DNA of 64,000 bases, taken from NCBI RefSeq assembly GCF_006345805.1, contig NC_043009.1, forward strand, positions 48,608,001-48,672,000. The letters run 5' to 3'. Below are positions 5,160-54,314 of this stretch, in pieces (the stretch's first letter is position 1; the number at the start of each line of letters is the position of its first letter). The position numbers were made by a program, and so were the translations under genes. The stretch is from Octopus sinensis (Eukaryota). The notes beneath the pieces were generated by a model. That model saw nothing but the letters and a program-made list of their open reading frames with translations. It was not told the origin of the DNA and did not search any database.

Positions 5160-5379
5160 CGCCATGGCACTATCATTAGCACATCGGGCAAAATTGTTAG
5201 CGGTGTTTCGTCTGTCTTTATGTTCTAAATTCAAATTCTGCCGAGGTCGACCTTACCTTTCGTCATTTCGAGGTCGATAAAGTAGGTACCAGTTGAGCAC
5301 GGGGGTCGATGTAGTCGGCTTACTTCTCCTTCCCACCCCAACTCCCAAACATGCAGGCCTTGAACCAAGATACGAAAGC

Positions 5380-5380
<1 letters not shown>
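5160..5380 (+). mobile_element. SINE family 1, tail type A
   Basis: tRNA-like head, central CCGAGGTCGAC...TTTCGAGGTCGATAAA..GTACCAGT domain, GGCCTTG tail ending in (ATT)n. Confidence 0.75.
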
Positions 5381-13619: not shown

Positions 13620-14760
13620 AAATCAACAGCATCGCCACCATCAACACCATCACCACCACCACCCACCACCACCACCACCATCACCACCGCTACAATTACG
13701 ACGACCGCCACTACAACCAATACTGCCACCATTACAACCATCACCATCATCACCACTACAATCACCACCACCACTAACAACACCATCACCACAAGCACCA
13801 CCGCTACCATCACCTTCATCACCACTACAAACACCACCAACAATACCACCACTACAACCATCACCACACCACCACTACAATCACCATCGCCACCACCTCT
13901 GCCAACAACAGCAACAACGATAACAACAATAATACCATTTTTACCACCTACACCGCCATTACAAACACCACCACCACCAGTCTCACCACCGCCATTACAA
14001 ACACCACCACCACCAGTCTCACCACCGCCATTACAAACACCACCGCCATTACAAACACCACCACCCAGTCTCACCACCGCCATTACAAACACCACCACCA
14101 CCGCCATTATCGCTATCAAAACGAACAACAATAAACCCTATATCCTTTCTAATAGTGCTTCTATCGCCATCACCACCACCAACAGCTATGAGACTGCTTC
14201 CACCAACAACAACAACATCATCAGCAATAACAACATCATCATCATCATCAACAACAGCATCAACAATCTCACTATCAGCACGGCTATCATCATCACCACT
14301 ACCAGCAATTGCAACATCAGCAACAACGACATCATCAACAACCACAACATCAACAACCTCACAACCAGCACGGCCATCATCATCATCACCACTACCGCCA
14401 ACAAGAGCAACCACAAGAACAAGAACAATTACAACAGCCTCACCACCACCACCACCACTACCACCACCACAGACACCACGACATTATTTCCACCACCCTC
14501 ATTATATCCCCACCACAACCATTATCCCCACTACCTCTACTATTCCCACCATCACCACCACCACCTGCAAGAACAACAACAACGTCACCACAATTAATTA
14601 TTACCATGTTTACTGAGTAAACCCATCAATACAGACTTTAATATGTTTTGCTTCACCACACACATCTCTCCCTCCTCGAAGCACCACCACCACCACCATC
14701 ATCTTCACCACCACCACAACCATTACCAATAGCAACAACAGCAACACTACATCTTCCGCT
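13620..14760. repeat. (CAC/CAA)-rich low complexity with a 36/18-bp minisatellite at 13951-14110
   Basis: Repeated unit CACCGCCATTACAAACACCACCACCACCAGTCTCAC and its 18-bp half unit. Confidence 0.85.
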
Positions 14761-15649
14761 ACCACATACACTTTCTCTTATACTTCATTAATGGAACCTT
14801 ACTTTTTTATTTTTATTTTTTTCTTCATCTTCACTTTCTCATCATCTTCCGACATCTTCTTCTCATCATCATTATCATCATCTTTCTTGTTGTTAATGTT
14901 GTTGTTGTTAGCTTACATTTGTTTCTGCTACAGGATGAAATGCACCCATAGTTGAGTACCTGTGTATCACGCTATAACTTCATCGGAGCTTCAAAATTGA
15001 AGTGTATTGCATCTTATATTAGAAACAGTTATAAGCTAATAACGTTCATTCATACCCTTATCGTTTTAATATCTCATACATATACATATATGTGTGTGTA
15101 TACGTCAGTGAGGGAGGTGGATGGATGTACGAATGAGGTAAATACATGTAGGTACCTACATGCATATATACATACACATTCACACACACACACACATTGC
15201 TGACGTCATAAGAAATTATAAACTTTCTCGAGTAAGTTAAATATTTAATTTTTGGAACAGCGTGACTCGAAGCATAAAGCTATATATGATGGCATATAAA
15301 TATTCGGTATCATGCCTTGGCAATACAACAGTCGGACGAGCTTGTATAGTGTTCCGTATAATTTCAGGCAATCTCTAATAAATTACACCATCACGACTTC
15401 TATCATCACTATTATCATCAACAATAACAGCTACCATGCGATGGTCATGGTTGGAATATATTTCAATCATAAGTCAACTTTCTCAGTACTGACATGTGGC
15501 TAAAAATTCCCACCACTCTCATCACTACCACAAACAACAACAATAACAACTGCTACAACAACTCACTGTAGATTTTTAGAGGTGATGGCCACGTCTAGAA
15601 TATATCCTAATCATAGATCAGCCTGGGTAATGACTTGAGGTTAAATAAT

Positions 15650-16400
15650 ACTATTATCACCACTACCACCACTACCATCACTACCACCATCACCATCACC
15701 ATCACCACCAGCATCAGCACCACCACTACCACCACCATCTCCACCACCTCCATCATCCAACACAATAATCTCTACTACCTGTACCATCACGAACAAGGAC
15801 AACAATTGCAAATCCTAGAAGATTTATAGACGTGATGGCCACGGCTTGAATATATTCTAATCATGCTCGTACGTGAACTTGTTCAGAACTGTTCTGAGGT
15901 TAAATATCACACCGCAAGTACCACCACCACCACCACCACCAGTACCATAACCATCGCCAACACCAGTATCACAACCACCACCACCAACAACAACAACATC
16001 ACCAGCACCGACACCGCCGTTGCCATTACCAGCACCCGCACCTGCACCAGCAGCAACACCACCACCACCACCACCACCACTACCACCACCACCACCATCA
16101 CCACTACCACCACCCGCACCAGCCCTACCGCTACCACTACCACCACAACCACCGCCTCGACCGACGCCGCCACCTCCATCACCACCTCCACCAATATCAG
16201 TACCACAACCACCGTCAACTCCAGTATCACAACCACCACAGCCATCACTACCACCATAATCACCACCACCACCACCATAATCACCAGCAACAACATCACC
16301 AGCACCAGCACCAGCACCACCGCTACCACCACCACTATCATTAACACCACTACCACTACAATCACCGCCTCCACCACCACCACGTACGTCAATGACCGCC
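15650..16400. repeat. (ACC)n-derived low-complexity tract
   Basis: Directly visible; gives poly-T/P/V ORFs in several frames. Confidence 0.85.
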
Positions 16401-17134
16401 AGTAGTTATGTATGAGTCTATTTAGTTATAATGGTACCGGCTCTAAGTCGAAACTTGTTGATTTAATAATATGCTGAAGCTTTCATTGGACGTCGGACTG
16501 TGGAAATGAAGATATACAAAGGATAATTCGCAACCCCGCCACCACCACCTTCACCACCACCACCACCACCACCACCACCGCCTACACTAACCACAACAGC
16601 ACCGCCAACACCGCCTTCGTCACCAAACTCAAACTCATTTCTTAACGGGCTTCCTACTGATTGATATATGAGGTTAATATAGTTAATATACACTTTGAAC
16701 ATAGAAGACCAAATCTAATATCCGAAATGAACAACAACTACAACAACTACAACAACACTAGCAGGCAGCAGCAGTAACACCAACAACAACAGCAACAACA
16801 ACAATAGTAACAACAACAAAACAACAACAACAACAACGAGACATTATAAACCGTGTATATTAAATAATATTAAAGAAATGATATCGTCTTCGTTTTGGTC
16901 AAGACAAGATTTCCGTTTGAGCTAATTGTAGAATAATTACCCAGCCACGCCGCATATTTAACCGTTAAATGGTAAATAACAATGAGGAACCGACATCGCC
17001 GTCGTCGTTGCCGTGTTCTTCTTCTTCTTCTTTTCTTCTTCTTCTTCTTCTTCTTCTTCTTCTTCTTCTTCTTCTTCTTCTTCTTCTTCTTCTTCTTCTT
17101 CTTCTTCTTCTTCTTCTCCTCGTGTAGTCGGGTG

Positions 17135-20742: not shown

Positions 20743-21466
20743 ATATATATATATATATATATATATAATACACATGTATATAATATTTATATATACTCAC
20801 ATGAATATATTCATGTTGCACACGCATATATATTATATATATATATATATAATGTATATAAGATATTATATATACATATATATATATATATATTTGTGTG
20901 TATGGATATATATATATATATACATATCTATATATATATGTATGTGTATAAGTACACGTACCCAAGTACACTCACACACACATATTTAAGTATCAACATT
21001 TCTGTAATATTTAAATCAGTTAATCAAATAATTGTTTTCGATATTTGGTTTCACTTTCCAGTTCCAGTTACTTAACAACTCTCTCTCTCTCTCTCTCTCT
21101 CTCTCGAATATGTTACCGATAGCGAACTGTTGATATACACACCAACTAGTACCTACCACAGTCTGGCATCTCTTGGCTGTTACCGATACTAATCTCCTGT
21201 TATATACACCAACCGTTACTCAAAACTGTATAAATGCCTAACTAAACAACTATCTCCACCTTCAGGTCTGATTTCAGCTGACCCATATTGATTGATTATT
21301 ATTGATCTAAAGAGTGTTGATTAATTACATCGAACATGAGATTGAAACTATTTGATCCGTAACTCATTATCTTCCGATATTGCTCTAATTTAACAATACC
21401 TTGTACTAGATTTGCAACTCTTCACATAAAAAGGTTTTGCTGTAGCTTTATATATAAATATATATA

Positions 21467-22044
21467 TTCCTTTCTACTCTAGGCGCAAGGCAAGAAATAT
21501 TTGGGGAGGTGGTTAGTCGATTAGATCGCCCCCCAGTACGCATCTGGTACTTAATTTATCGATCTCGAAAGGATGGAAAGCAAAGTCGACCTCGGCGGAA
21601 TTTAAACTCAGAACGTACAGACTGACGATATACCTATTTCATTACTGCCCACGATGGGCTACACACACAGGAAACAAACAAGGACAGACATAGGTATTAA
21701 GTCGATTACATCGACCCCAGAGCGTAAATGGTACTTAACTTATCGACCCCAAAAGGATGAAAGGCAAAGTCGACCTCGACGGAATTTGAACTCAGAGCGT
21801 AGCGGCAGACGATATACCTATTTCTTTACTACCCACAAGGGGCTAAACACAGAGGGGGCAAACAAGGACAGACAAACGGATTAAGTCGATTATATCGAGC
21901 CCAGTGCGTAACTGGTACTTATTTAATCGACCCCGAAAGGATGAAAAGCAAAGTCGACCTCGGCGGAATTTGAACTCAGAACGTAGCGGCAGACGAAATA
22001 CGGCTAAGCATTTCGCCCGGGGTGCTAACGATTCTGCCAGCTCG
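21467..22044 (-). mobile_element. SINE family 1 head-to-tail trimer
   Basis: One head (22002-22044), two 184-bp tail-B units (21818-22001, 21634-21817) and a terminal tail-A unit. Both internal junctions read GACGATATAC|CTATTTC. Confidence 0.92.
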
Positions 22045-23034
22045 GTGCTTCTTATATAAGCGGACTAAATTAAGACGTAGACGAAAAAAATCGACATAGT
22101 AGAACTGACTGGAAAATGGAGTAGAAATAACGAGTATATTTATATTATGTAAACTCATAGGTTCTTTTCTACCATTACGCGAAATAATCTTAATAAGAAT
22201 GTTACAATACATAAATTTAAGTAGTAATCATAATGTTTTAGATACTAAATGTTTTTAACAACGAATAAGGCAGGCAGCATAAATTTTATGCATAATATAA
22301 ACTTCCTATTTTATATTCTAATGAGAGGATGGTTTTGGTTCTGCTTTGCTTGGGACTCATGAGGTGACAACTTTAAAATGGTTCGCGAAATATTATGCAC
22401 AGATCTGGATGTGTGTGATTACTTAAATTTAATTTTGAGAAATAACTTTCGCATTGGTAAGTGATAAGAAACCGCGATGCAATTTTCAATGCATGTATTC
22501 CCAGAGGTATATATATTTTTCAACTTCTAAATATGGCTCGTATAATTCCAAAATAAATAACCTATTAAAATTTCATAACAAAGCGTCATTATCCTATTAT
22601 AAATAAATTAAATCAACTTGCAAAGAATCAGGCGCATCCATTTGACATGAGATCAAAGAAGCTTTATCTGGCATCACATCATAAGAACCTTCATTTGGCG
22701 TCACATCAAAAGAAGCTTCATGTAGCAGCTAGATGCTAGCATCACATCAAAACGAGTTGCACATTTGTATAATTCGATCTCGTGATTTCGCAAATCACGA
22801 AACCTATTTTGAAATCGAACCGAAATATTGAACAGTCGATAATATACTCCGCTATTAATTCTCGCTTTATGGTTTTCCTTTTGATTTCGAAAATGTAACA
22901 TGTAACGTATTTTTTTTCTTTCAGTTGTGTAACGGGACTGTTGCAGGAATGGTTCAACGTTTTGACATAAGCTGAATAAACCATTGTCAACTCAGACATT
23001 CGGTCACTTAAGAGACAAGATACATTGAACAAAT

Positions 23035-29140: not shown

Positions 29141-29144
29141 TATT

Positions 29145-29376
29145 ACTCTTTTACTCTTTTACTCTTTTGATTGTTTCAGTCATTTGACTCTGGCCATGCT
29201 GGAGCACCGCCTTTAGTCGAGCAAATCGACCCCAGGACTTATTCTTTGTAAGCCTAGTACTTCTTCTCTCGGTCTCTTTTGCCGAACCGCTAAGTTACGG
29301 GGACGTAAACACACCAGCATTGGTTGTCAAATGATGTTGGGGATAGGGACACAATCACAGACTCACAAGCACACAG

Positions 29377-29418
<42 letters not shown>

Positions 29419-29668: not shown

Positions 29669-29870
29669 GAACTCAGAACATAAAGACAGACGAAATACCT
29701 ATTTCTTTACTACCCACAAGGGGCTAAACACAGAGAAGACAATCAAGGACAGACAAACGGATTAAGTCGATTATATCGACCCCAGTGCGTAACTTTCGAC
29801 CCCGAAAGGATGAAAAGCAAAGTCGACCTCGGCGGAATTTGAACTCAGAACGTAACGGCAGACGAAATAC
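29669..29870 (-). mobile_element. SINE family 1 body (tail B) plus a remnant of an earlier host unit; its head lies at 35218-35278
   Basis: Junction GACGAAATAC|CTATTTC at 29698/29699. The SINE is interrupted at 29870 by the LINE. Confidence 0.9.
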
Positions 29871-30115
29871 CAATTTCTTTATTGCCCACCGGGGGCCAAA
29901 CATAGATATGGACAGTACAACTGATGGGATCAGTGAATCGATATGATTTTACATAAATGTGACATCAAAAATAAAATACAATACATAAAAATCGAATGGA
30001 ATACACAGTACAAAAACAATACAAATGAAGCGATGATCAAGTTACGCTCCGATCCCACAAGCCCCGATTCTACCGCTGATACCTTTTTATTTTTTTTTTT
30101 TTTTTCCTCATCTAT

Positions 30116-33100
30116 TCACACGGTTCCTTGCACGCACAACACTCGTGCAACATACTTCCATCTCTTTTGGAACGTACACTCTGACAGACACCTCTTCTCC
30201 AGCCACAGTTTCCTTTTCAAATGAAAAGAAAAAAAGGATCGTAAATTGTCACCAGAGATAAAGTTGCCTGTCTTAATTCCTTTTATCCTAGTATTCCATA
30301 CAGCCTCTTTTGCTATTGCTACAACCGTGAGAAAACAATTCTTACCTTCGTTCGTTAGAACTCCCGGTGGTCAATTTTTATAATTGACTCAGTCGACAGC
30401 CGTACTCTTCCTTCGCCGGACAACAGATGTTCAGCATAAGCCCACATTTCAGTTATCTCCGGACACTGAACAATAGCGTGAGGGACGGTTTCCCTGTCCC
30501 CACCGCATCTTGGACAGGTCGGCGACTGACGTTTACCATGTCTTGCGAGCTTATCCCAAACGGGCAAGGCACCTCTGTAGCATTGCCAGGTTAAGGACTT
30601 TTGGAAGTTGTCCAACGTTCTCAACCCGAATGTACGATGAAACAAGCTGTCCAGTTGAATAATCCGAGACCTAGAGTCGACCCCAGGCCATCGTCGCATT
30701 CAGACTCTACCAAACCAACTATATAAAAATCCGTGTGGAACCCCACCGCTGGCGTTGCCCGAGCGCCGGAACAGCAAGAGGGCCTTACGGCACTCTTTAT
30801 GCCACTCACTCGACCTCGGTCTACGAGAACACACCAGGCTTCCTGTTCGCAAAAACTCTTGAACTCAGGGAACATTTGTCTGGCCAGCGGAGACCACACC
30901 CGTTCACTATCCAGGAGAATTCAGAGGTGCCTCAACCTCAACGCATGTCTGCGCATCATTAACCAAGGCATCCCTAAACCTCCATTTAAAGGCTTTTGAC
31001 AGCAGACAGAGCGTTTCACAAGTGGCGACCTGCCCTTCCACAAAAAGCGAAAGAGCTGTCTCTCCAACCTGATCAACCACGAATCCGGACAGGGCACGAC
31101 AGTCAGGCGGTAGGTAATGACCGATGCGATAAACACATCGGCCACTTCCGCCTCCCTTTCAGGGATAGCCACCGCCAAGACCAAGTCTTGACTACTGCAG
31201 CCACCCTGCTCAATACCTCCGTCCAGTTCTTCTCTATCTGGAGGCCTGGTCCAAACCAGACTCCCAGCAACTTAACCGGTCCCTCCGTCCAGCGCCTAAC
31301 AACACTGTCTGAAGGCATCGACTTGCCAACCAGGTGCCGAGCTGCAAGCCGACCGACTTTTCCCGGTTAATCTTTGCTCTGCTACCTCCTCGTAAGCCTC
31401 AATAGTCTTACCTACTTCACGTAGCGTACCACTGTGGTTACACTGAGAGTGATATCATCCGCGAAAGCCGTAACAAACTCCTCTAGTCCTGGTTCTCTCG
31501 GGATGCCACTCAACCTTTGCAGTAATGGCTCGAGAGCCATCACAACAAAAGTGGTGTGAAAGCGGACATCCTTGACGAACCGAGCGTCTGATGCAGAACG
31601 GCTTCGAAAGGAAACCGTTCACCCGAACTATCGAGTCAATGTTGTGGTACAAAGCGATAAATCACCTGAGGAAGCCAAGGCCCAGGCCAAACCGCGCAAG
31701 TACAGTCGCTAGGTATCGATGGTCAACCCTATCAAAAGCTTTAGACTGGTCCAAATGCACCAATGCCCCACCTTTGCCAGATTTATTACCAAACCTCTCT
31801 ATGGTATAGCGAATAAGATGGAGGGTATCCTGAATGGTTCTGCCTGGATGGCACATGTCTGTGCCTCCCCGACTATACCATTCGCGACACGCGCCAACCT
31901 TTTTGCTAGAACCTTGGCCAAAATCTTCACTTCTGCGTTTAACAGAGTGATGGGCCTGAAATTCTCTAGAACGTCCCCTTGCGGGTCCTTTCTGACCAAC
32001 GTCACTACTCCCCGGCGCACAGATCTGGGGATAAACCCATTCTGTTTCCAGTTCGCGTACACGTCAGTCAGTAGTTGCCCGAACAAGTCTGGCATACATT
32101 TATACAGCTCGTACGGAAGACCATCAAGTCCCGGTGACTTACCCGCTTTACAATCGGCCAAAGCCTCCATCACCTCCTCAAGTGTGATTGGCCCTTCGCA
32201 AGACTCCGCATCCGACCCCGAGAGGCACGGCAGCCCAGTAAGAAAGTCCTCGAGGGCTCTCCCACCACCAGGACCGCCGTCACCCCCGAACAGCTGGGCG
32301 AAGTAGTACTCCCGAAAGACCTCACACATTTTCTCGGGTTCGTTTATCAAGACACCATTTTGATTCGTCAAAGACCGAATAGAGGAACTATTCCTTGCCG
32401 AGCTTCCACCACTCGGGCCCATCCAGCGGCTTTGATTCCTTCACTTCCCATTGCACGTAACTTAGCTCTGGTAATACTTCCCATGTGGTGGGCTTCAAGA
32501 TGATGGTTTAACTCCAGTCTTTTCACCCTCGCTTGGTCTGTATTACCAGTCCTCCAGGGCTTCTTCTAGTTCCTTAACTAGACCATCTCCTATTTTACGT
32601 CCCTTCTTAGCTAAACTTATGCTAAACCTAATAGACTCATATTTGATGGCTCTTTTTAGGGCGTACCACCATTTGTTATTAATGATGGTACCTGTTAATG
32701 CCCTCTGTATTAACATCTTGATCCGCTTTCTGTACTCCTCAATCGCCAAAAGGGACGTATTGAGTTTCCAGTAGCCAGATCCCTGTCTATGCAACTTATC
32801 TACCGTCAGTTTACAGGTAACCATCTTGTGGTCACTGTAGCTGACTAGAAAAAACTGTGGACACTCAACTATGGACTTATCTTTTTCTCTAATTAAAATC
32901 CTATCTAGATATGTTCTGGTAGACCCGTCACTATTTGACCACGTCCACTGTGGAGTGTTCGGGTGCTCCAACCTATATGGATCTGCTAGCTGAAATTGAC
33001 TTAGCAGATCCCGAAAGCCTGTGTGTTACTTTCTGTTCATGTTCGAGTTTGAGCCAACACAATCTGTGTGTGCTGCACATATTGTATAGAGTCTCCTAAC

Positions 33101-33513
33101 ACTACTAGTGAATGCGACGTGGCTAGGAACTTTCCTAGGCCACGAAAATATTCAGTTTGCGGGCCAATAATGTTTGGTGCATAAATAGCGACCAGCCTGA
33201 TTGTCTTGCCACAACTGAATGTCAAGTCGAGAACGACCAGCCTGCCTTCTGGGTCAGAAAAAACCAACTTTTTCTCGGCTACCCGGTTTCTTTTTAGTAG
33301 GACCAACACCCCACCCCCACCTCCCGCCGACTCGGAGAAACGTATTTCTCGTAGCCGTTCAGGAGGGGGAGCAGATCTCTTGGCCCCTCACCCGGGTTTC
33401 CGTTGTGCAACAATTACATCCAAATTTCTCGACCTGATGTCATTCAGAAAGCGTCCTTGCTTCCAGCTTGACAACAGGCCATGAACATTTAAACAACCAA
33501 TGTGAATAGCCAT
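30116..33513 (-). pseudogene. Tx1 ORF2: AP endonuclease, reverse transcriptase and zf-RVT (frameshifted in this sequence)
   Basis: MAIHIGCLNVHGL, IYAPN, LDRIL, SDH, YWKLN; KSPGLDGLP, FRPITLLN, LDQSKAFDRVDH, QGCPLS, FADD; GGLGMP; CPRC..ETVPHAIVQC. Confidence 0.93.
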
Positions 33514-33524
33514 CACTTACCTGT

Positions 33525-34980
33525 TTAATTAGGATTGTCCGGTGGAGGGGGACCCTCCACCTTTTTTTTATCCAGGGTCGGAGGTGGACGGTCTTGGGAA
33601 ATAGATTTGTCAAAATCCCGTCTCACCACCGACACAGAATTATCAGGTGGAGGGGGAATCTCCACCTTTTCCTTTTCTCGCGGGATCGGAGCTGGTAATC
33701 CATGAAATATCGACTTGTTAAAATCTAATCTCAATGAAGATACAGTCTTTCTGTACTTATTTTGTAGAATTCTATAAGTCTTATTTGAGACTTCATATAT
33801 GTCGTAATTGATAAATTCCTCTGAAAGGTTATCAATTTTTTTTACAGTCTTTATGAGTTGAATGTCTCTCATGAGCTCAGTATCTTTAGTGTATACGGCT
33901 ATTATGCCTTTTTCTCTTTTCTCTTCTGGCAGTCTTTTTTGGTCGTTGTTCTGTAGTAGTCGCCGCTCTCGGCTGGGTTGCTGGTTGTATTTTTCTTTTG
34001 TTTGTTGTTTTTTTCTCATCTGTTTCTTCTTATCTTCTTCCTCTTTGTCTTTTTTCTCCTCTTCCTCTCTCTTCTTCATTTTCCTTGCAGTTCCTTCGAA
34101 TGTGGCCTAATTGACCACATAAAAAACATCGAGGTTTTCGGCCCTCAACAAACACCACGAGGTTCTCCTCCCCTACCTCAATTGTCTCAGGAATTGTTGA
34201 ATTATTTTAGGGTCCGCTTGAATGAGAAGATTAATTGTTTTACCATCCCAGCGTGGGTTTTCCGTAGCGGTAGCCTGGAGGAGAGTAATTTTTTCTACCT
34301 CTTTGATTAGGACTGCCGCCAACAACCACATAGGTTCGACCTCTGGCGGGACCCTTGTAATTTTTATTCGCGACGTCCTCATCCCCATATAATAGGGTAT
34401 TAACTCCACGTCGTTCGTTTTCAACGTTTCCACTGAGTTCTTGTGTGCTATTTCTTTATTGGTGAACCTTACTTCCACCGTTCCGAATTTTTTTCCTCTT
34501 CTCAGAAATACTACGTCGCCCAATATTGGCTTTAAGCACTTTTCTATTTTCTCTTCTGACATTCTTTCAATTTTTCTATTTTGTAGACAATATGTTTTGA
34601 AAATTATTGTTTTTTGCTTTTCTTCCTGTAATAACTTTTGCGGAGGTTCAATTTTCACATGTGTCATTTATTTCCATCATTTTGCTGTATTTCATAATTT
34701 CGCTTTTATTCGTCGACAGTATCTGGGTTCCACCCCCAGCAGCCAACGCAAAACTTTTTTTTCCATTTTTTGGTTCTATCTGGATGCTAGGCACATCAAT
34801 TATTCTCTTCGACACAATGCCTTTGTTCTCTGGCAAAGTCGGAAACTCTTCTGGTGAAAGTTCTGACGAGCTCTCAGACACATCTCCAAAAATATCAAAT
34901 ATATTATCCTCTCTGCTATTCCTTCTTGTAGCGGGGGAAACCCCTATTTCCTTGTCTGTAGTTGGCTCCTCGCCGGACAT
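33525..34980 (-). pseudogene. Tx1 ORF1 (gag-like, frameshifted)
   Basis: CCHC knuckle CFLCGQLGHIRRNC at 34087-34128, an RRM-like region, a charged tail and a duplicated PPPPDN motif. Confidence 0.85.
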
Positions 34981-35331
34981 GTATTTCCTCCTCTCAACAA
35001 GAGAGAAGAAACAAGTATTTCTGCTCCAACGGTAGGCTCCATGCTAGACGACATTCTTCCCCCCAAAGGGGGAATGAACAACGCGTGCTACCACAAGCAC
35101 TAAGTGTTTTCAATTGAAAACTCCAACAGTTAAGTATTCAACAGTTTAACAAGAAACAACAGTTGTTAACAATATTAACACCACGAAACAGCAATTCTTA
35201 CTTCACGAACACATGCGCGGCAGACGAAATACGGCTACGAATTTCGCCCGGCGTGCTTAACGTTTCTGCCAGCTCGCCACTTTACATGAATGAATATTGT
35301 TATAGTTATTGTTGTTCGTATTGTTGTTCGT

Positions 35332-35758
35332 AGGCGCAGGAGTGGCTGTATGGTAAGTAGCTTGCTAACCAACCACATGGTTCCGGGTTCAGTCCCACTT
35401 CGGGCAATTTGGGCAAGTGTCTTTTGCTATAGCCCCGGGCCGACCAATGCCTTGTGAGTGAATTTGGTAGACGGAAACTGAAAGAAGTTTGTCGTATATA
35501 TATATCTATATATATATAATATATATATATATATATGTGGGGCTGTGTGTGTTTGTGGTTGTGTTTGTCCTCTAGCATTGCTGACAACCGATGCTGGTGT
35601 GTTTACGTCCCCGTCACTTAGCGGTTCGGCAAAAGAGACCGATAGAATAAGTACTGGGCTTACAAAGAATAAGTCCCGGGGTCGATTTGCTCGACTAAAG
35701 GTGGTGCTCCAGCATGGCCGCAGTCAAATGACTGAAACAAGTAAAAGAGTAAAAGAGT
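35332..35758 (+). mobile_element. SINE family 2, full length
   Basis: AGGCGCAGGAGTGGCTG head, B box GGTTCAGTCCC, internal microsatellite and GTAAAAGA tail. Confidence 0.9.
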
Positions 35759-36476
35759 AGTGTGGTGCTTTGCCCCAGGTCAGCACTGAATTTGTAGGCA
35801 TGAGTTCAAAGGGTAATTCAGCCATGATCATCCTATTACATTTTCAACTATGGTAAAGAACGTCAACCAACATTACCCTTCGTCTTTTGTTAAGGTAGGC
35901 TATCATTCGAAGGAGCTATGGCTACTATTTTAAGCATATCGAGCAACCAAATAATACATTCCATATTGGCTCTTAGTATAAATTTAGTATTTAGGAGTGG
36001 TGTATACTGATATAGTATATACAAGCCATGTAGATTACAACATACGTTATTGTAGTTGTTTAGTGCTGGGTCGATCCGGATTGAGAAGACCATCCTGACA
36101 TTTTCTTGAGCGATACATTTCTGGTACTGCATTATTTTCTAATGCACTCATTCACTTTAAATCGGTAGAGTATTATATGAGAGGATTTAGCTGCTATTTC
36201 TAACATGTTGAGACAGTATTTCTCGCTGGCTCGTGATAGTAATTGTTTCCCAGGGAAGCACAGGGTCAAAATTATGCGGGAAGAGGTTATCGTTCAATCG
36301 AACGCACTTGTTTATTTCATCCATCCCCAGGAGGATCAATGGTAAAGTTGACCTTAGTTGGGTTGAACCAAGAACATAGAAACTTGAATTAATACCACTG
36401 TTCTACTGAGGATGTCAGTTTACCACTTTATGTTTATGTATGTATGTATGTATGTATGTATAGATAGATAGTTAGA

Positions 36477-40762: not shown

Positions 40763-40915
40763 TACGTTCTGAATCAGATACCACCGAGGTCAACGTTGGT
40801 TTTCATCCTTTCAGGATAGATAAATGAAGTACCAGTTGCGTATTGGGGTCGATCTAATCGACTGCCCCGCCTCGCCAAAAATTTCGGGCCTTGTGCCTAG
40901 AGTAGAAAATAATAT
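40763..40915 (+). mobile_element. SINE family 1, 3' part, tail A
   Basis: TTTCATCCTTTCAGG..GATAAAT.AAGTACCAGT followed by GGCCTTGTGCCTAGAGTAGAAA. Confidence 0.75.
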
Positions 40916-42194: not shown

Positions 42195-42321
42195 CTTTGT
42201 GAGTGAATTTGGTAGACGGAAACATAAAGAAGCTCGTCGTATATATGTATATATATGTATATATGTATATATATGTATATATGTATATATATGTATATAT
42301 ATATATATATGTATATATATG

Positions 42322-42356
<35 letters not shown>

Positions 42357-42557
42357 TTGTGTGTCTGTGTTTGTCCCCCCAACATCGCTTGACAACCGAT
42401 GCTGGTGTGTTTACATCTCCGTAACTTAGCGGTTTGGCCAAAGAGACCGATAAAATAAGTACTAGGCTTACAAAGAATAAGTCCTGGGGTCGATTTTCTC
42501 GACTAAATGTGGTGCACCAGCATGGCCACAGTCAAATGACTGAAACAACTAAAAGAG
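42195..42557 (+). mobile_element. SINE family 2, 5'-truncated
   Basis: Matches the family from TTGTGAGTGAATTTGGTAGACGG onward. Confidence 0.85.
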
Positions 42558-47204: not shown

Positions 47205-47722
47205 TAGAGGGGACAGACAAAGGGACTAGGTTGATTACATCGATTCCAGTGCGTAACTGGTACTTATTTAATCGACCCCGAGAGTATAAAAGGCAAAGTC
47301 GACCTCGGCGGAATTTGAACTCAGAACGTAACGGCAGACGAAATACCTATTTCTATTTCTTTACTACCAACAAGGGGCTAAATATAGAGAGGACAAACAA
47401 GGACAGACAAACGGATTAAGACGATTATATCGACCCCAGTGCTTAACTGGTACTTATTTAATCGACCCCCAAAGGATGAAAGGCAAAGTCGACCTCGGCG
47501 GAATTTGAACTCAGAACGTAACGGCAGACGAAATACGGCTACACCGGTGTTTCGTTCTGAGTTCAAATTCCACCGAGGTCGATTTTGCCTTTCATCCCTT
47601 CGGGGTCAATTAAATAAGTACCGGTTATGCACTGGGATCGTTTTAATCGGCTTTATCCCTTTGTAAGTCTTTGTTTCTCCACTCTATGTTTAGCTAGCCC
47701 CATGTGGGCAGTAAAGAAATAA
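47205..47722. mobile_element. SINE family 1 dimer (minus) fused head-to-head with an inverted copy (plus)
   Basis: Junction GACGAAATAC|CTATTTC at 47346/47347. Inverted unit at 47553-47722. Confidence 0.88.
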
Positions 47723-53189: not shown

Positions 53190-54314
53190 TCTATTGTTTC
53201 AGGACGGCCCATACCTTGTAAATGCAATTGAGTAAACTGAATCTGTGTAGAATCATGTCAGGCTGATTGTACCAGTAATTCAAGCGGTACAGTATTTGAA
53301 ACAAACTGCATGATGCTGATCTTGCCTGAGAGATTTGTCAGTGTTACATTACACATATCCGTGGAATTCACAAGAACTTAATCGTTAATACAAGGGCAGA
53401 TAATTCGCTCGATCGAACAAGTGAATCATCATCGACAAACGATGGAGATCCACAACTGTGATAACACGTGCAATAAAACTCCATGCGTGCGATACGGTCA
53501 TTGGAAAACTTTCATGGATAAAAATTATGCATCCAATGAGTAAACAAGCATATCCTTTACCGTACGGGAAAATTGAAGCGAGGCAAATAACTTCAATGAA
53601 ATCATCTGAGAAAATACTTTTGAGACTATAGACCACACAGATATTGATAGCTCTTCATTTTAATGGCAGTTGATGAAAGTAAGGGCGAGTGGCTATGTGG
53701 TAAGTAGCTTGCGAACCAACCACATGGTTCCGGGTTCAGTCCCACTGCGTGGCATCTTGGGCAAGTGTCTTCTGCTATAGCCCCGGGCCGACCAATGCTT
53801 GTGAGTGGATTTGGTAGACGGAAACTGAAAGAAGCCTGTCGTATATATGTATATATATATGTATGTATGTGTGTGTGTTTGTGTGTCTGTGTTTGTCCCC
53901 CTAGCATTGCTTGACAACCAATGCTGGTGTGGTTACGTCCCTGTCACTTAGCGGTTCGGCAAAAGAGACCGATAGAATAAGTACTGGGCTTACAAAGAAT
54001 AAGTCCCGGGGTCGATTTGCTCGACTAAAGGCGCTGCTCCAGCATGGCCGCAGTCAAATGACTGAAACAAGTAAAAGAGTAAAAGAGTACAAGAGTAAAG
54101 AGTATATAGCTGATCCGAATTCACCACAATACACATGAGATGGTGAACTGAAGATGGTGATCTCAGAACGCTTTTGTCATAAAGCTTAATTAGTTCTAGA
54201 ATGGTCCTTTTGGAAGTTGCTACGATGGTATCATGTGATCTTCGTAATTTTTGAAAATCCTCGTAAGTCCATAAACTTTTTCCCTTCCAGTAACGATTGT
54301 CGCAAAGGTAACGA
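53190..54314 (-). pseudogene. Decayed IS630/Tc1-type transposase split by a SINE
   Basis: Motifs in the expected order: HTH-like TILELIKL....RSPSSVHHL; IIFIHES (cf. FIDES); ICVM* (cf. IVMDN); FSLLNCIYKVWAVLKQ (cf. SP.LNPIE.VW..LK). Confidence 0.5.
53683..54102 (+). mobile_element. SINE family 2, young full-length copy
   Basis: High identity to 35332 and 38023. Confidence 0.9.

What the first reader, a model, noticed from the sequence alone, without database searches (positions are those of the whole stretch)
21467..22044. SINE trimer records a homing-like tail replacement
The array has one head, then two exact 184-bp tail-B bodies, then a body with a different tail (type A, also seen at 5330-5380 and 40880-40915). 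No second head is present, and the tail-B unit next to the head looks closest to the other young copies. Inferred: tail-B cDNA is primed at the target site and joins by homology to the resident head. This restores A-box/B-box spacing and converts a tail-A locus into a tail-B transcription unit, so one subfamily drives through the other.
Basis: partly seen in the sequence, partly recalled or inferred. Interest (0 to 1): 0.75.

Follow-up and report, generated by a model that had tools for sequence, protein, structure and literature searches.

The report
Self-targeting SINE overwrites older copies
This three-unit repeat is one of tens of thousands in a likely octopus genome in which a young jumping repeat sits at one exact base inside older copies of its own family, the same base where a related full-length retrotransposon inserts, and it likely takes over the older copy's promoter by joining to it through shared sequence.

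Summary
Real, but on the minus strand and not special to this locus. It reads head, core+tail B, core+tail B, core+tail A2 (period 184; B units 87% identical). The headless joint occurs 31,591 times as an exact 20-mer. In 1.66 Mb of tiles the unit upstream of such a joint is tail B in 45 of 47 cases. Tail B ends like a 5.3-kb L1/Tx1-type LINE that sits at the same base of another SINE in this window, with a 15-bp duplication; 103 of 142 copies of that LINE end abut a SINE core. Nested insertions keeping two heads exist but are rare (3 of 137 arrays). Arrays ending in old A1/A3 units have chimeric heads (5' resident, 3' B) and older flanking duplications, as homologous joining predicts. Arrays ending in A2, like this one, have fully B-like heads, so read-through re-copying remains possible here. 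'Drive' is untested. Earlier unreviewed notes of this scan reported the self-targeting LINE on other windows; the listings I saw did not mention head chimerism.

The parts
22002..22053 (-). Single SINE head with A-box-like motif (22039-22029); carries T21 (A-type-enriched) and C50 (B-type)
   Evidence: head plus core start folds as a weak tRNA-like cloverleaf only at a relaxed ARAGORN threshold
21884..22001 (-). Core of unit 1 (young B type); B box at 21975-21965, 64 nt from the A box; T4 run at 21947
   Evidence: (1.9% from consensus with subfamily sites masked)
21818..21883 (-). Tail B of unit 1; its last ~35 nt resemble the 3' end of the L1/Tx1-type LINE; ends at junction J1
21700..21817 (-). 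Headless core of unit 2 (diverged B type, different haplotype from unit 1); T4 run at 21754
21634..21699 (-). Tail B of unit 2, ending at the second J1 junction
21516..21633 (-). Headless core of unit 3 with A2-subfamily diagnostics (inferred resident)
   Evidence: 7.6% from its consensus
21465..21515 (-). Tail A, subtype A2
29871..35217 (-). Broken, near full-length L1/Tx1-type LINE (5' ORF remnants, endonuclease, RT, zinc knuckle) inserted at the J1 site of another SINE; candidate partner of tail B
   Evidence: (zf-RVT 4e-9; RVT_1 weak)
35218..35283 (-). Head of the SINE split by the LINE plus left copy of the 15-bp TSD (35232-35218)
29669..29870 (-). Rest of the split SINE: right TSD copy (29870-29856), core, tail B, a further J1 joint and a truncated core

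Best explanation
The array is a nested stack in which young tail-B SINE copies sit at one fixed base of an older SINE, likely inserted one after another by a sequence-preferring L1/Tx1-type LINE whose 3' end tail B shares, with the incoming copy likely joined to the resident head by homology so that only one head remains. Steps: (1) shown: tail B resembles the LINE 3' end, and LINE and B copies lie at the same head/core boundary; (2) shown: B insertions there can leave an ordinary TSD and two heads; (3) inferred: the B RNA's 5' end equals the DNA upstream of the cut, so the cDNA usually anneals inside the resident head, giving one often chimeric head and keeping the resident's outer TSD; (4) inferred: the site is regenerated, so stacks grow at the head side and A tails stay last; (5) shown for some arrays, not this one: later local duplication of internal units.
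For: Window LINE flanked by SINE head and core with a 15-bp TSD. 103 of 142 LINE-end 32-mers are followed by a SINE B box at J1 distance, with varied B- and A-type cores; only 1.8% of GGTAT sites in tiles are headed core starts (45 of 2,485). Upstream unit is B at 45 of 47 joints. At least 10 two-headed nested insertions with TSD, yet only 3 of 137 unselected headed arrays have two heads. In 31 B-to-A1/A3 arrays the resident share falls along the head: 0.67 (0.36-0.96) at position 21, 0.24 (0-0.49) at 38, 0.04 at core 15. T21 in 19 of 31 against 14 of 69 B monomers, p=0.00015; 16 of 28 after dropping a duplicate and two J2-containing loci, p=0.0006. Phase is 5'A/3'B in 13, reverse in 2. Their TSDs are older than those of B monomers: 0.175 against 0.10 mismatch, p=0.04. 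63 terminal A2 units share no more rare variants than chance (12 pairs, null 14). At this locus the head is 7% diverged and the adjacent core 1.9%.
Against: In 66 B-to-A2 arrays (the focal class) heads are no more diverged than in B monomers (103 of 1,501 against 114 of 1,586 sites, p=0.73) and keep B diagnostics (G45 18 of 62 against 18 of 66). Their TSD age (0.13, 0.095-0.175) does not differ from B monomers (p=0.29). TSDs of A1/A3 arrays are also younger than those of A1/A3 monomers (0.285, p=0.03), so that class is mixed. Most B copies are not nested (58 headed monomers against 33 B-led arrays), so the preference is loose for the SINE. LINE sequence upstream of the 32-mer was seen for only 2 of the 142 matches (window, L221). 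No outer TSD and no ortholog spanning the array at this locus. Endonuclease specificity is untested.
Confidence: 0.55

Rival explanations
1. Read-through re-copying: B nests in a resident, Pol III reads from the B head through the resident core and tail, and the composite RNA is retroposed to a new site with a fresh TSD. Single-head arrays, especially those ending in A2, are then new insertions, not converted residents.
For: No T4 terminator in any consensus module. Arrays are flanked as a whole by TSDs. B-to-A2 heads are B-like and their TSDs as intact as in B monomers. A B-B-B block sits inside one TSD at L209. A2 is over-represented as last unit (12 after a joint, 11 headed).
Against: No clonal sharing among 63 terminal A2 units, so very many source loci would be needed while two-headed loci are about 2% of arrays. 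It does not predict the 5'-resident/3'-B heads or older TSDs of A1/A3 arrays.
Confidence: 0.23
2. Ordinary nested insertion leaves two heads, and the ~65-nt head-plus-TSD direct repeat later collapses by slippage or recombination. Same end product as the best explanation, different timing.
For: Head-plus-TSD units have expanded into tandem runs at several loci, so the repeat is unstable. The resident-share gradient fits a uniform crossover over 65 nt.
Against: B cores in 12 two-headed loci are not clearly younger than in 127 single-headed arrays (0.030 against 0.033 non-CpG divergence), whereas gradual collapse predicts an age gap. The sample is small.
Confidence: 0.12
3. Template jump in one event: reverse transcription starts on an A-type RNA and switches onto the 3' end of a B RNA at the J1 microhomology.
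For: Template jumping is documented for R2 (passage in PMC2718515) and invoked for SINE module exchange (passages in PMC4758252). It gives B-type heads and fresh TSDs, as in the A2 class.
Against: It does not explain the LINE itself sitting at this base with a TSD, the chimeric heads, or the polarity within B-only arrays (last older in 21 of 31, younger in 9, p=0.04).
Confidence: 0.06
4. Local tandem duplication of one unit after insertion.
For: It operates in the family: adjacent B units share 0.83 rare variants against 0.10 between arrays, and 41 of 179 units have their nearest neighbour in the same array.
Against: 51 of 107 adjacent pairs share none. The focal pair is 13% apart with different haplotypes. 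It cannot place a B tail before an A core.
Confidence: 0.04

Closest known systems
SINEU families with Tx1-Mar LINEs of crocodilians (Kojima 2015, PMC4494074; part 1 of 5 and passages read)
   Same: A Tx1-type LINE and the SINEs it is thought to mobilise share a preferred site inside another repeat; sequential tandem SINE insertions occur.
   Different: There the target is a Mariner element and tandem copies sandwich a TSD. Here the target is the SINE's own head/core boundary, the SINE shares the LINE's 3' end, and the second head is usually missing.
Melanogaster-type R1A elements (Stage and Eickbush 2009, PMC2718515; passages read)
   Same: Upstream target sequence at the RNA 5' end lets the cDNA anneal to the target and gives precise 5' junctions; otherwise a TSD plus a duplicated upstream piece is left, like the two-headed loci here.
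   Different: Autonomous element in 28S rDNA with 7-28 nt of homology; here a non-autonomous SINE with about 65 nt of homology that includes its own promoter.
Alu self-insertion hotspot at position 133 (Levy et al., PMC2836564; abstract and passages read)
   Same: A SINE inserts in sense at one position of its own family.
   Different: As described in the passages read, these are complete nested insertions at an L1 site; no head loss and no dedicated SINE-targeting LINE.
Tandem SINE multimers of Scapharca broughtonii (PMC11481361, section 15 and passages) and squamate SINE-derived satellites (PMC10702118, part 1 of 5 and passages)
   Same: One complete head, internal head-truncated units, a last unit with complete tail, one outer TSD.
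   Different: Attributed there to unequal recombination. Here many neighbours come from different lineages and tail types.
Octopus OR1/OR2/OK tRNA-derived SINEs (Ohshima and Okada 1994; paper not held; known only from citing passages)
   Same: Abundant tRNA-type SINEs of octopus; this family may be one of them (recalled lead).
   Different: No sequence was available to compare, so identity is untested.

Membership tests
tRNA-derived SINE (SINE2) | Short, interspersed, high copy, non-coding | tested here: met
   406 cores in 1.664 Mb; 27,469 exact head/core 20-mers; monomer about 220-235 nt
tRNA-derived SINE (SINE2) | tRNA-related head with A and B boxes | tested here: inconclusive
   Box-like motifs read from the sequence; default ARAGORN and Rfam find nothing; cloverleaf only at relaxed thresholds that also call AT microsatellites; parent tRNA not identified
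tRNA-derived SINE (SINE2) | TSDs of target-primed insertion | tested here: met
   39 of 56 B monomers exceed the 95th percentile of shuffled flank pairs, mean 16 bp; not found at the focal locus
tRNA-derived SINE (SINE2) | 3' tail shared with a partner LINE | tested here: met
   Tail B aligns with the window LINE end and at 36 of 42 nt with a second LINE in L079; which is the true donor is open
tRNA-derived SINE (SINE2) | Pol III transcription | not testable with these tools
Target-specific Tx1-clade LINE | APE endonuclease, RT and C-terminal zinc knuckle, L1 group | tested here: met
   zf-RVT and weak RVT_1; endonuclease-side piece matches P0009, which carries PF03372; closest homolog hits human L1 ORF2p at about 1e-50, R2 at 1e-24
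Target-specific Tx1-clade LINE | Placement in the Tx1 rather than L1 clade by RT phylogeny | not tested
   No labelled reference set at hand; 'Tx1-type' rests on recall and earlier scan notes
Target-specific Tx1-clade LINE | More than 20% of copies flanked by one sequence type (criterion in PMC4494074) | tested here: met
   103 of 142 3' ends; 5' flank seen for one copy only
Homing element (true drive) | Occupied alleles convert empty cognate sites and become new sources | tested here: inconclusive
   Cognate-site insertion shown; promoter capture inferred for the A1/A3 class; source activity untested; focal cores carry T4 runs
SINE-derived satellite (sSat) | Four or more homogeneous internal units from local amplification | tested here: not met
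   Three heterogeneous units here; some other arrays do show homogenised internal units

The most novel reading that the evidence does not exclude
A SINE subfamily captured the tail of a LINE that targets the SINE itself and now homes into older family members, splicing its body behind their promoter by cDNA-to-head annealing. Tens of thousands of old SINE loci were rewritten into tail-B units, so one subfamily spread through the others like a retro-homing drive.
Probability: 0.35. Interest if true: 0.72.

Novelty: new variant of a known kind. Interest (0 to 1): 0.5.

Why it matters
If right, it shows a closed loop in which a SINE is both passenger and landing pad of one LINE, and in which insertion rewrites old copies instead of only adding new ones. 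It offers thousands of natural junctions for a long-open question, how the 5' end of a non-LTR insertion is joined and how much homology steers it. It also warns that head sequences and copy ages in octopus repeat annotations can be chimeric. The locus itself is ordinary within its genome.

Tried and rejected
(1) Simple annealing of the duplicated target alone: rejected for headed units, since the resident's core-start variants are not inherited (T15 3 of 41 against 5 of 66; 0 of 17 in A1/A3 dimers). (2) One master B-A2 gene: disfavoured, the A2 part is more diverged than the B part in 51 of 66 arrays, less in 9. (3) The rare A5 variant shared by focal units 2 and 3 as a TSD relic: ambiguous, it occurs after 9 of 107 J1 joints and 0 of 238 heads, so it may belong to the joint. 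(4) Ortholog test: contigs of organisms B and E carry a head beside the right flank, C (two studies) and F carry other sequence there, and no contig spans the array, so unit number could not be read. (5) A conserved tail hairpin: small stems can be drawn but none of four folds beats shuffles (z from -1.19 to 0.34). (6) Rfam and default ARAGORN: nothing. (7) repeat finder was swamped by microsatellites. (8) Literature: ten searches listed no paper on this structure in cephalopods; Ohshima and Okada 1994, Albertin 2015 and two mechanistic papers were not held, and Repbase/Dfam entries and supplements were not seen, so prior description cannot be excluded.

Full report
Anatomy. The finding is a SINE array on the minus strand: one head (about 22053-22002), two 184-nt units of core plus tail B, and a last core with another tail. 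The genome has 2.72 Gb, and the best named homologs of a LINE in the window are cephalopod, so it is likely an octopus; I did not try to identify the record. From 160 evenly spaced 10-kb tiles plus the window (1.664 Mb) I built modules: a 50-nt head, a 118-nt core, tail B and three A tails, A1-A3. The focal last tail is A2. B is young (median core divergence about 6-7%), A2 intermediate (9-12%), headed A1 and A3 old (18%).

How common and how ordered. Among 406 cores away from tile edges there are 42 joints where a tail runs straight into a headless core (J1) and 5 where it runs into head position 17 (J2). The upstream tail is B in 45 of 47. Of 35 arrays, A tails are last 20 times and internal twice, both in L055. 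Stacks of complete headed A elements also occur but are a different class. The exact J1 20-mer occurs 31,591 times and the head/core 20-mer 27,469 times. In 128 arrays from tiles and targeted sets the last core is more diverged than the first in 101 and less in 19. Several sets were picked by exact motifs in the last unit, which works against this result. Local duplication exists (adjacent B units share 0.83 rare variants against 0.10), but 51 of 107 adjacent pairs share none, including the focal pair, 13% apart.

Targeting. B monomers carry TSDs (39 of 56 above the null), and the four bases after the tail are TATA, GGTA or AGAA in 33 of 56; GGTA and AGAA are the starts of J1 and J2. A pattern for head, TSD, second head gives 63 exact hits. 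The 30 loci fetched are 21 distinct places. At least 10 show resident head, 11-18-nt TSD, B element, the same TSD and the resident core; at L209 three B units lie inside one TSD; three places are tandem runs of the head-plus-TSD unit. The likely cause is in the window. A broken 5.3-kb LINE (35217-29871, minus) splits a SINE at exactly J1 with a 15-bp TSD, and its last ~35 nt resemble the end of tail B. It is L1-group by domains and homologs; 'Tx1' was not tested by a tree. Its terminal 32-mer occurs 142 times, and 103 of these are followed by a SINE B box at J1 distance, with varied B- and A-type cores. That points to independent targets rather than one transduced flank, although I saw LINE body upstream for only two of them. 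A second LINE lineage shares 36 of 42 nt with tail B but mostly ends before CATATC, often running into ATCT repeats, so the true donor of the tail is not settled.

Fate of the head. Only 3 of 137 headed arrays not selected for it have two heads, so the second head is normally absent. The resident's core start is not inherited by the first unit, which rules out annealing through the TSD alone. For arrays ending in old units I used 31 cases: 8 from earlier sets and 23 of 30 loci fetched as the first 20 of 420 A3 and first 10 of 413 A1 pattern hits; six lacked a head in range and one was two-headed. Their heads are chimeric. The A-type T21 is present in 19 of 31 (B monomers 14 of 69, A1/A3 monomers 99 of 122), A38 in 8 of 31, and the core-15 variant in 1 of 30. 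Estimated resident shares are 0.67, 0.24 and 0.04, close to a uniform crossover over 65 nt (0.68, 0.42, 0.02); intervals at positions 45 and 50 are uninformative. The 5' half of these heads is more diverged than in B monomers (p=0.004), and their TSDs are older (0.175 against 0.10, p=0.04) though younger than in A1/A3 monomers (0.285, p=0.03). A cruder TSD score did not reach significance (p=0.12). Against this, the 66 arrays ending in A2 have heads indistinguishable from B monomers and TSDs of undecided age, while their 63 terminal units show no clonal sharing. Either the head is wholly replaced when the resident is similar, or many of these arrays are re-copied read-through transcripts; no consensus module has a T4 run.

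This locus. Head 7% diverged with T21 and the B-type C50, first core 1.9%, second unit about 10%, last core 7.6%. This fits two successive insertions behind an older head but does not prove them. No outer TSD is evident. Related organisms B and E have a head beside the right flank, C and F do not, and no contig spans the array. T4 runs in both B cores make it an unlikely source gene, from general knowledge of Pol III termination.

Comparison. It works like SINEU with Tx1-Mar (shared target in a repeat), like melanogaster-type R1A (cDNA annealing to upstream target) and like the Alu self-insertion hotspot. Its layout matches bivalve SINE multimers ascribed to unequal recombination. It differs in that target, passenger and promoter are the same family. 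Also seen: PMC13282606 part 1 of 3, passages of PMC3531059, PMC4824008, PMC4758252 and PMC8967140; none of what I read describes this structure. Ten searches listed no such paper, but key papers and repeat databases were not available. After finding the LINE I saw several unreviewed notes of this scan reporting the same system elsewhere in this genome; one prefers read-through. They are not independent support.

Verdict. Observation confirmed; interpretation partly supported. Self-targeting is well supported. Homologous head joining is supported for old residents and open for the A2 class. Drive is untested. New variant of a known kind, interest 0.5.

Noticed in passing
L079:3323-5900 (minus); also L185, L263, L026, L113, L278: A second L1/Tx1-type LINE lineage shares 36 of 42 nt with tail B but mostly ends before CATATC, often running into ATCT repeats.
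   Followed up: partly
L193-L199, L214-L218; G000:C3430:1366-2212: The 65-67-nt head-plus-TSD unit is expanded into tandem runs, up to 11 pattern hits at one place.
   Followed up: partly
L067:5268-5844, L076, L145 and other tiles: Complete headed A1/A3 SINEs stack head-to-tail with short spacers, suggesting insertion into each other's AT-rich tails.
   Followed up: no
L059:4103, L075, L179, L032: A second precise joint (J2) at head position 17, period 217; the upstream B tail has C at tail position 53 in 8 of 9 cases, possibly a second target site.
   Followed up: partly
window 47211-47721: Two B-family elements in inverted orientation, arms 26 nt apart.
   Followed up: no
window 29143-29399, 35582-35759, 42301-42557, 53842-54098: Copies of a second abundant interspersed repeat family.
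   Followed up: no
window 22046-22084, orthologs: Organisms C and F have at least 400-550 nt of other sequence where this genome has the SINE head; an ancestral segment may have been lost here, which could explain the missing TSD.
   Followed up: partly
L146 (minus, 5767) and L164 (minus, 5877): The 3' part of tail B is joined to bodies other than this core, hinting at module exchange.
   Followed up: no
L079:8793-10000 (minus): Broken reverse-transcriptase and integrase-like frames of what looks like an LTR retrotransposon; observed only.
   Followed up: no
window 13635-16837: Long degenerate CCA/CAA trinucleotide tracts with strong C-over-G skew.
   Followed up: no
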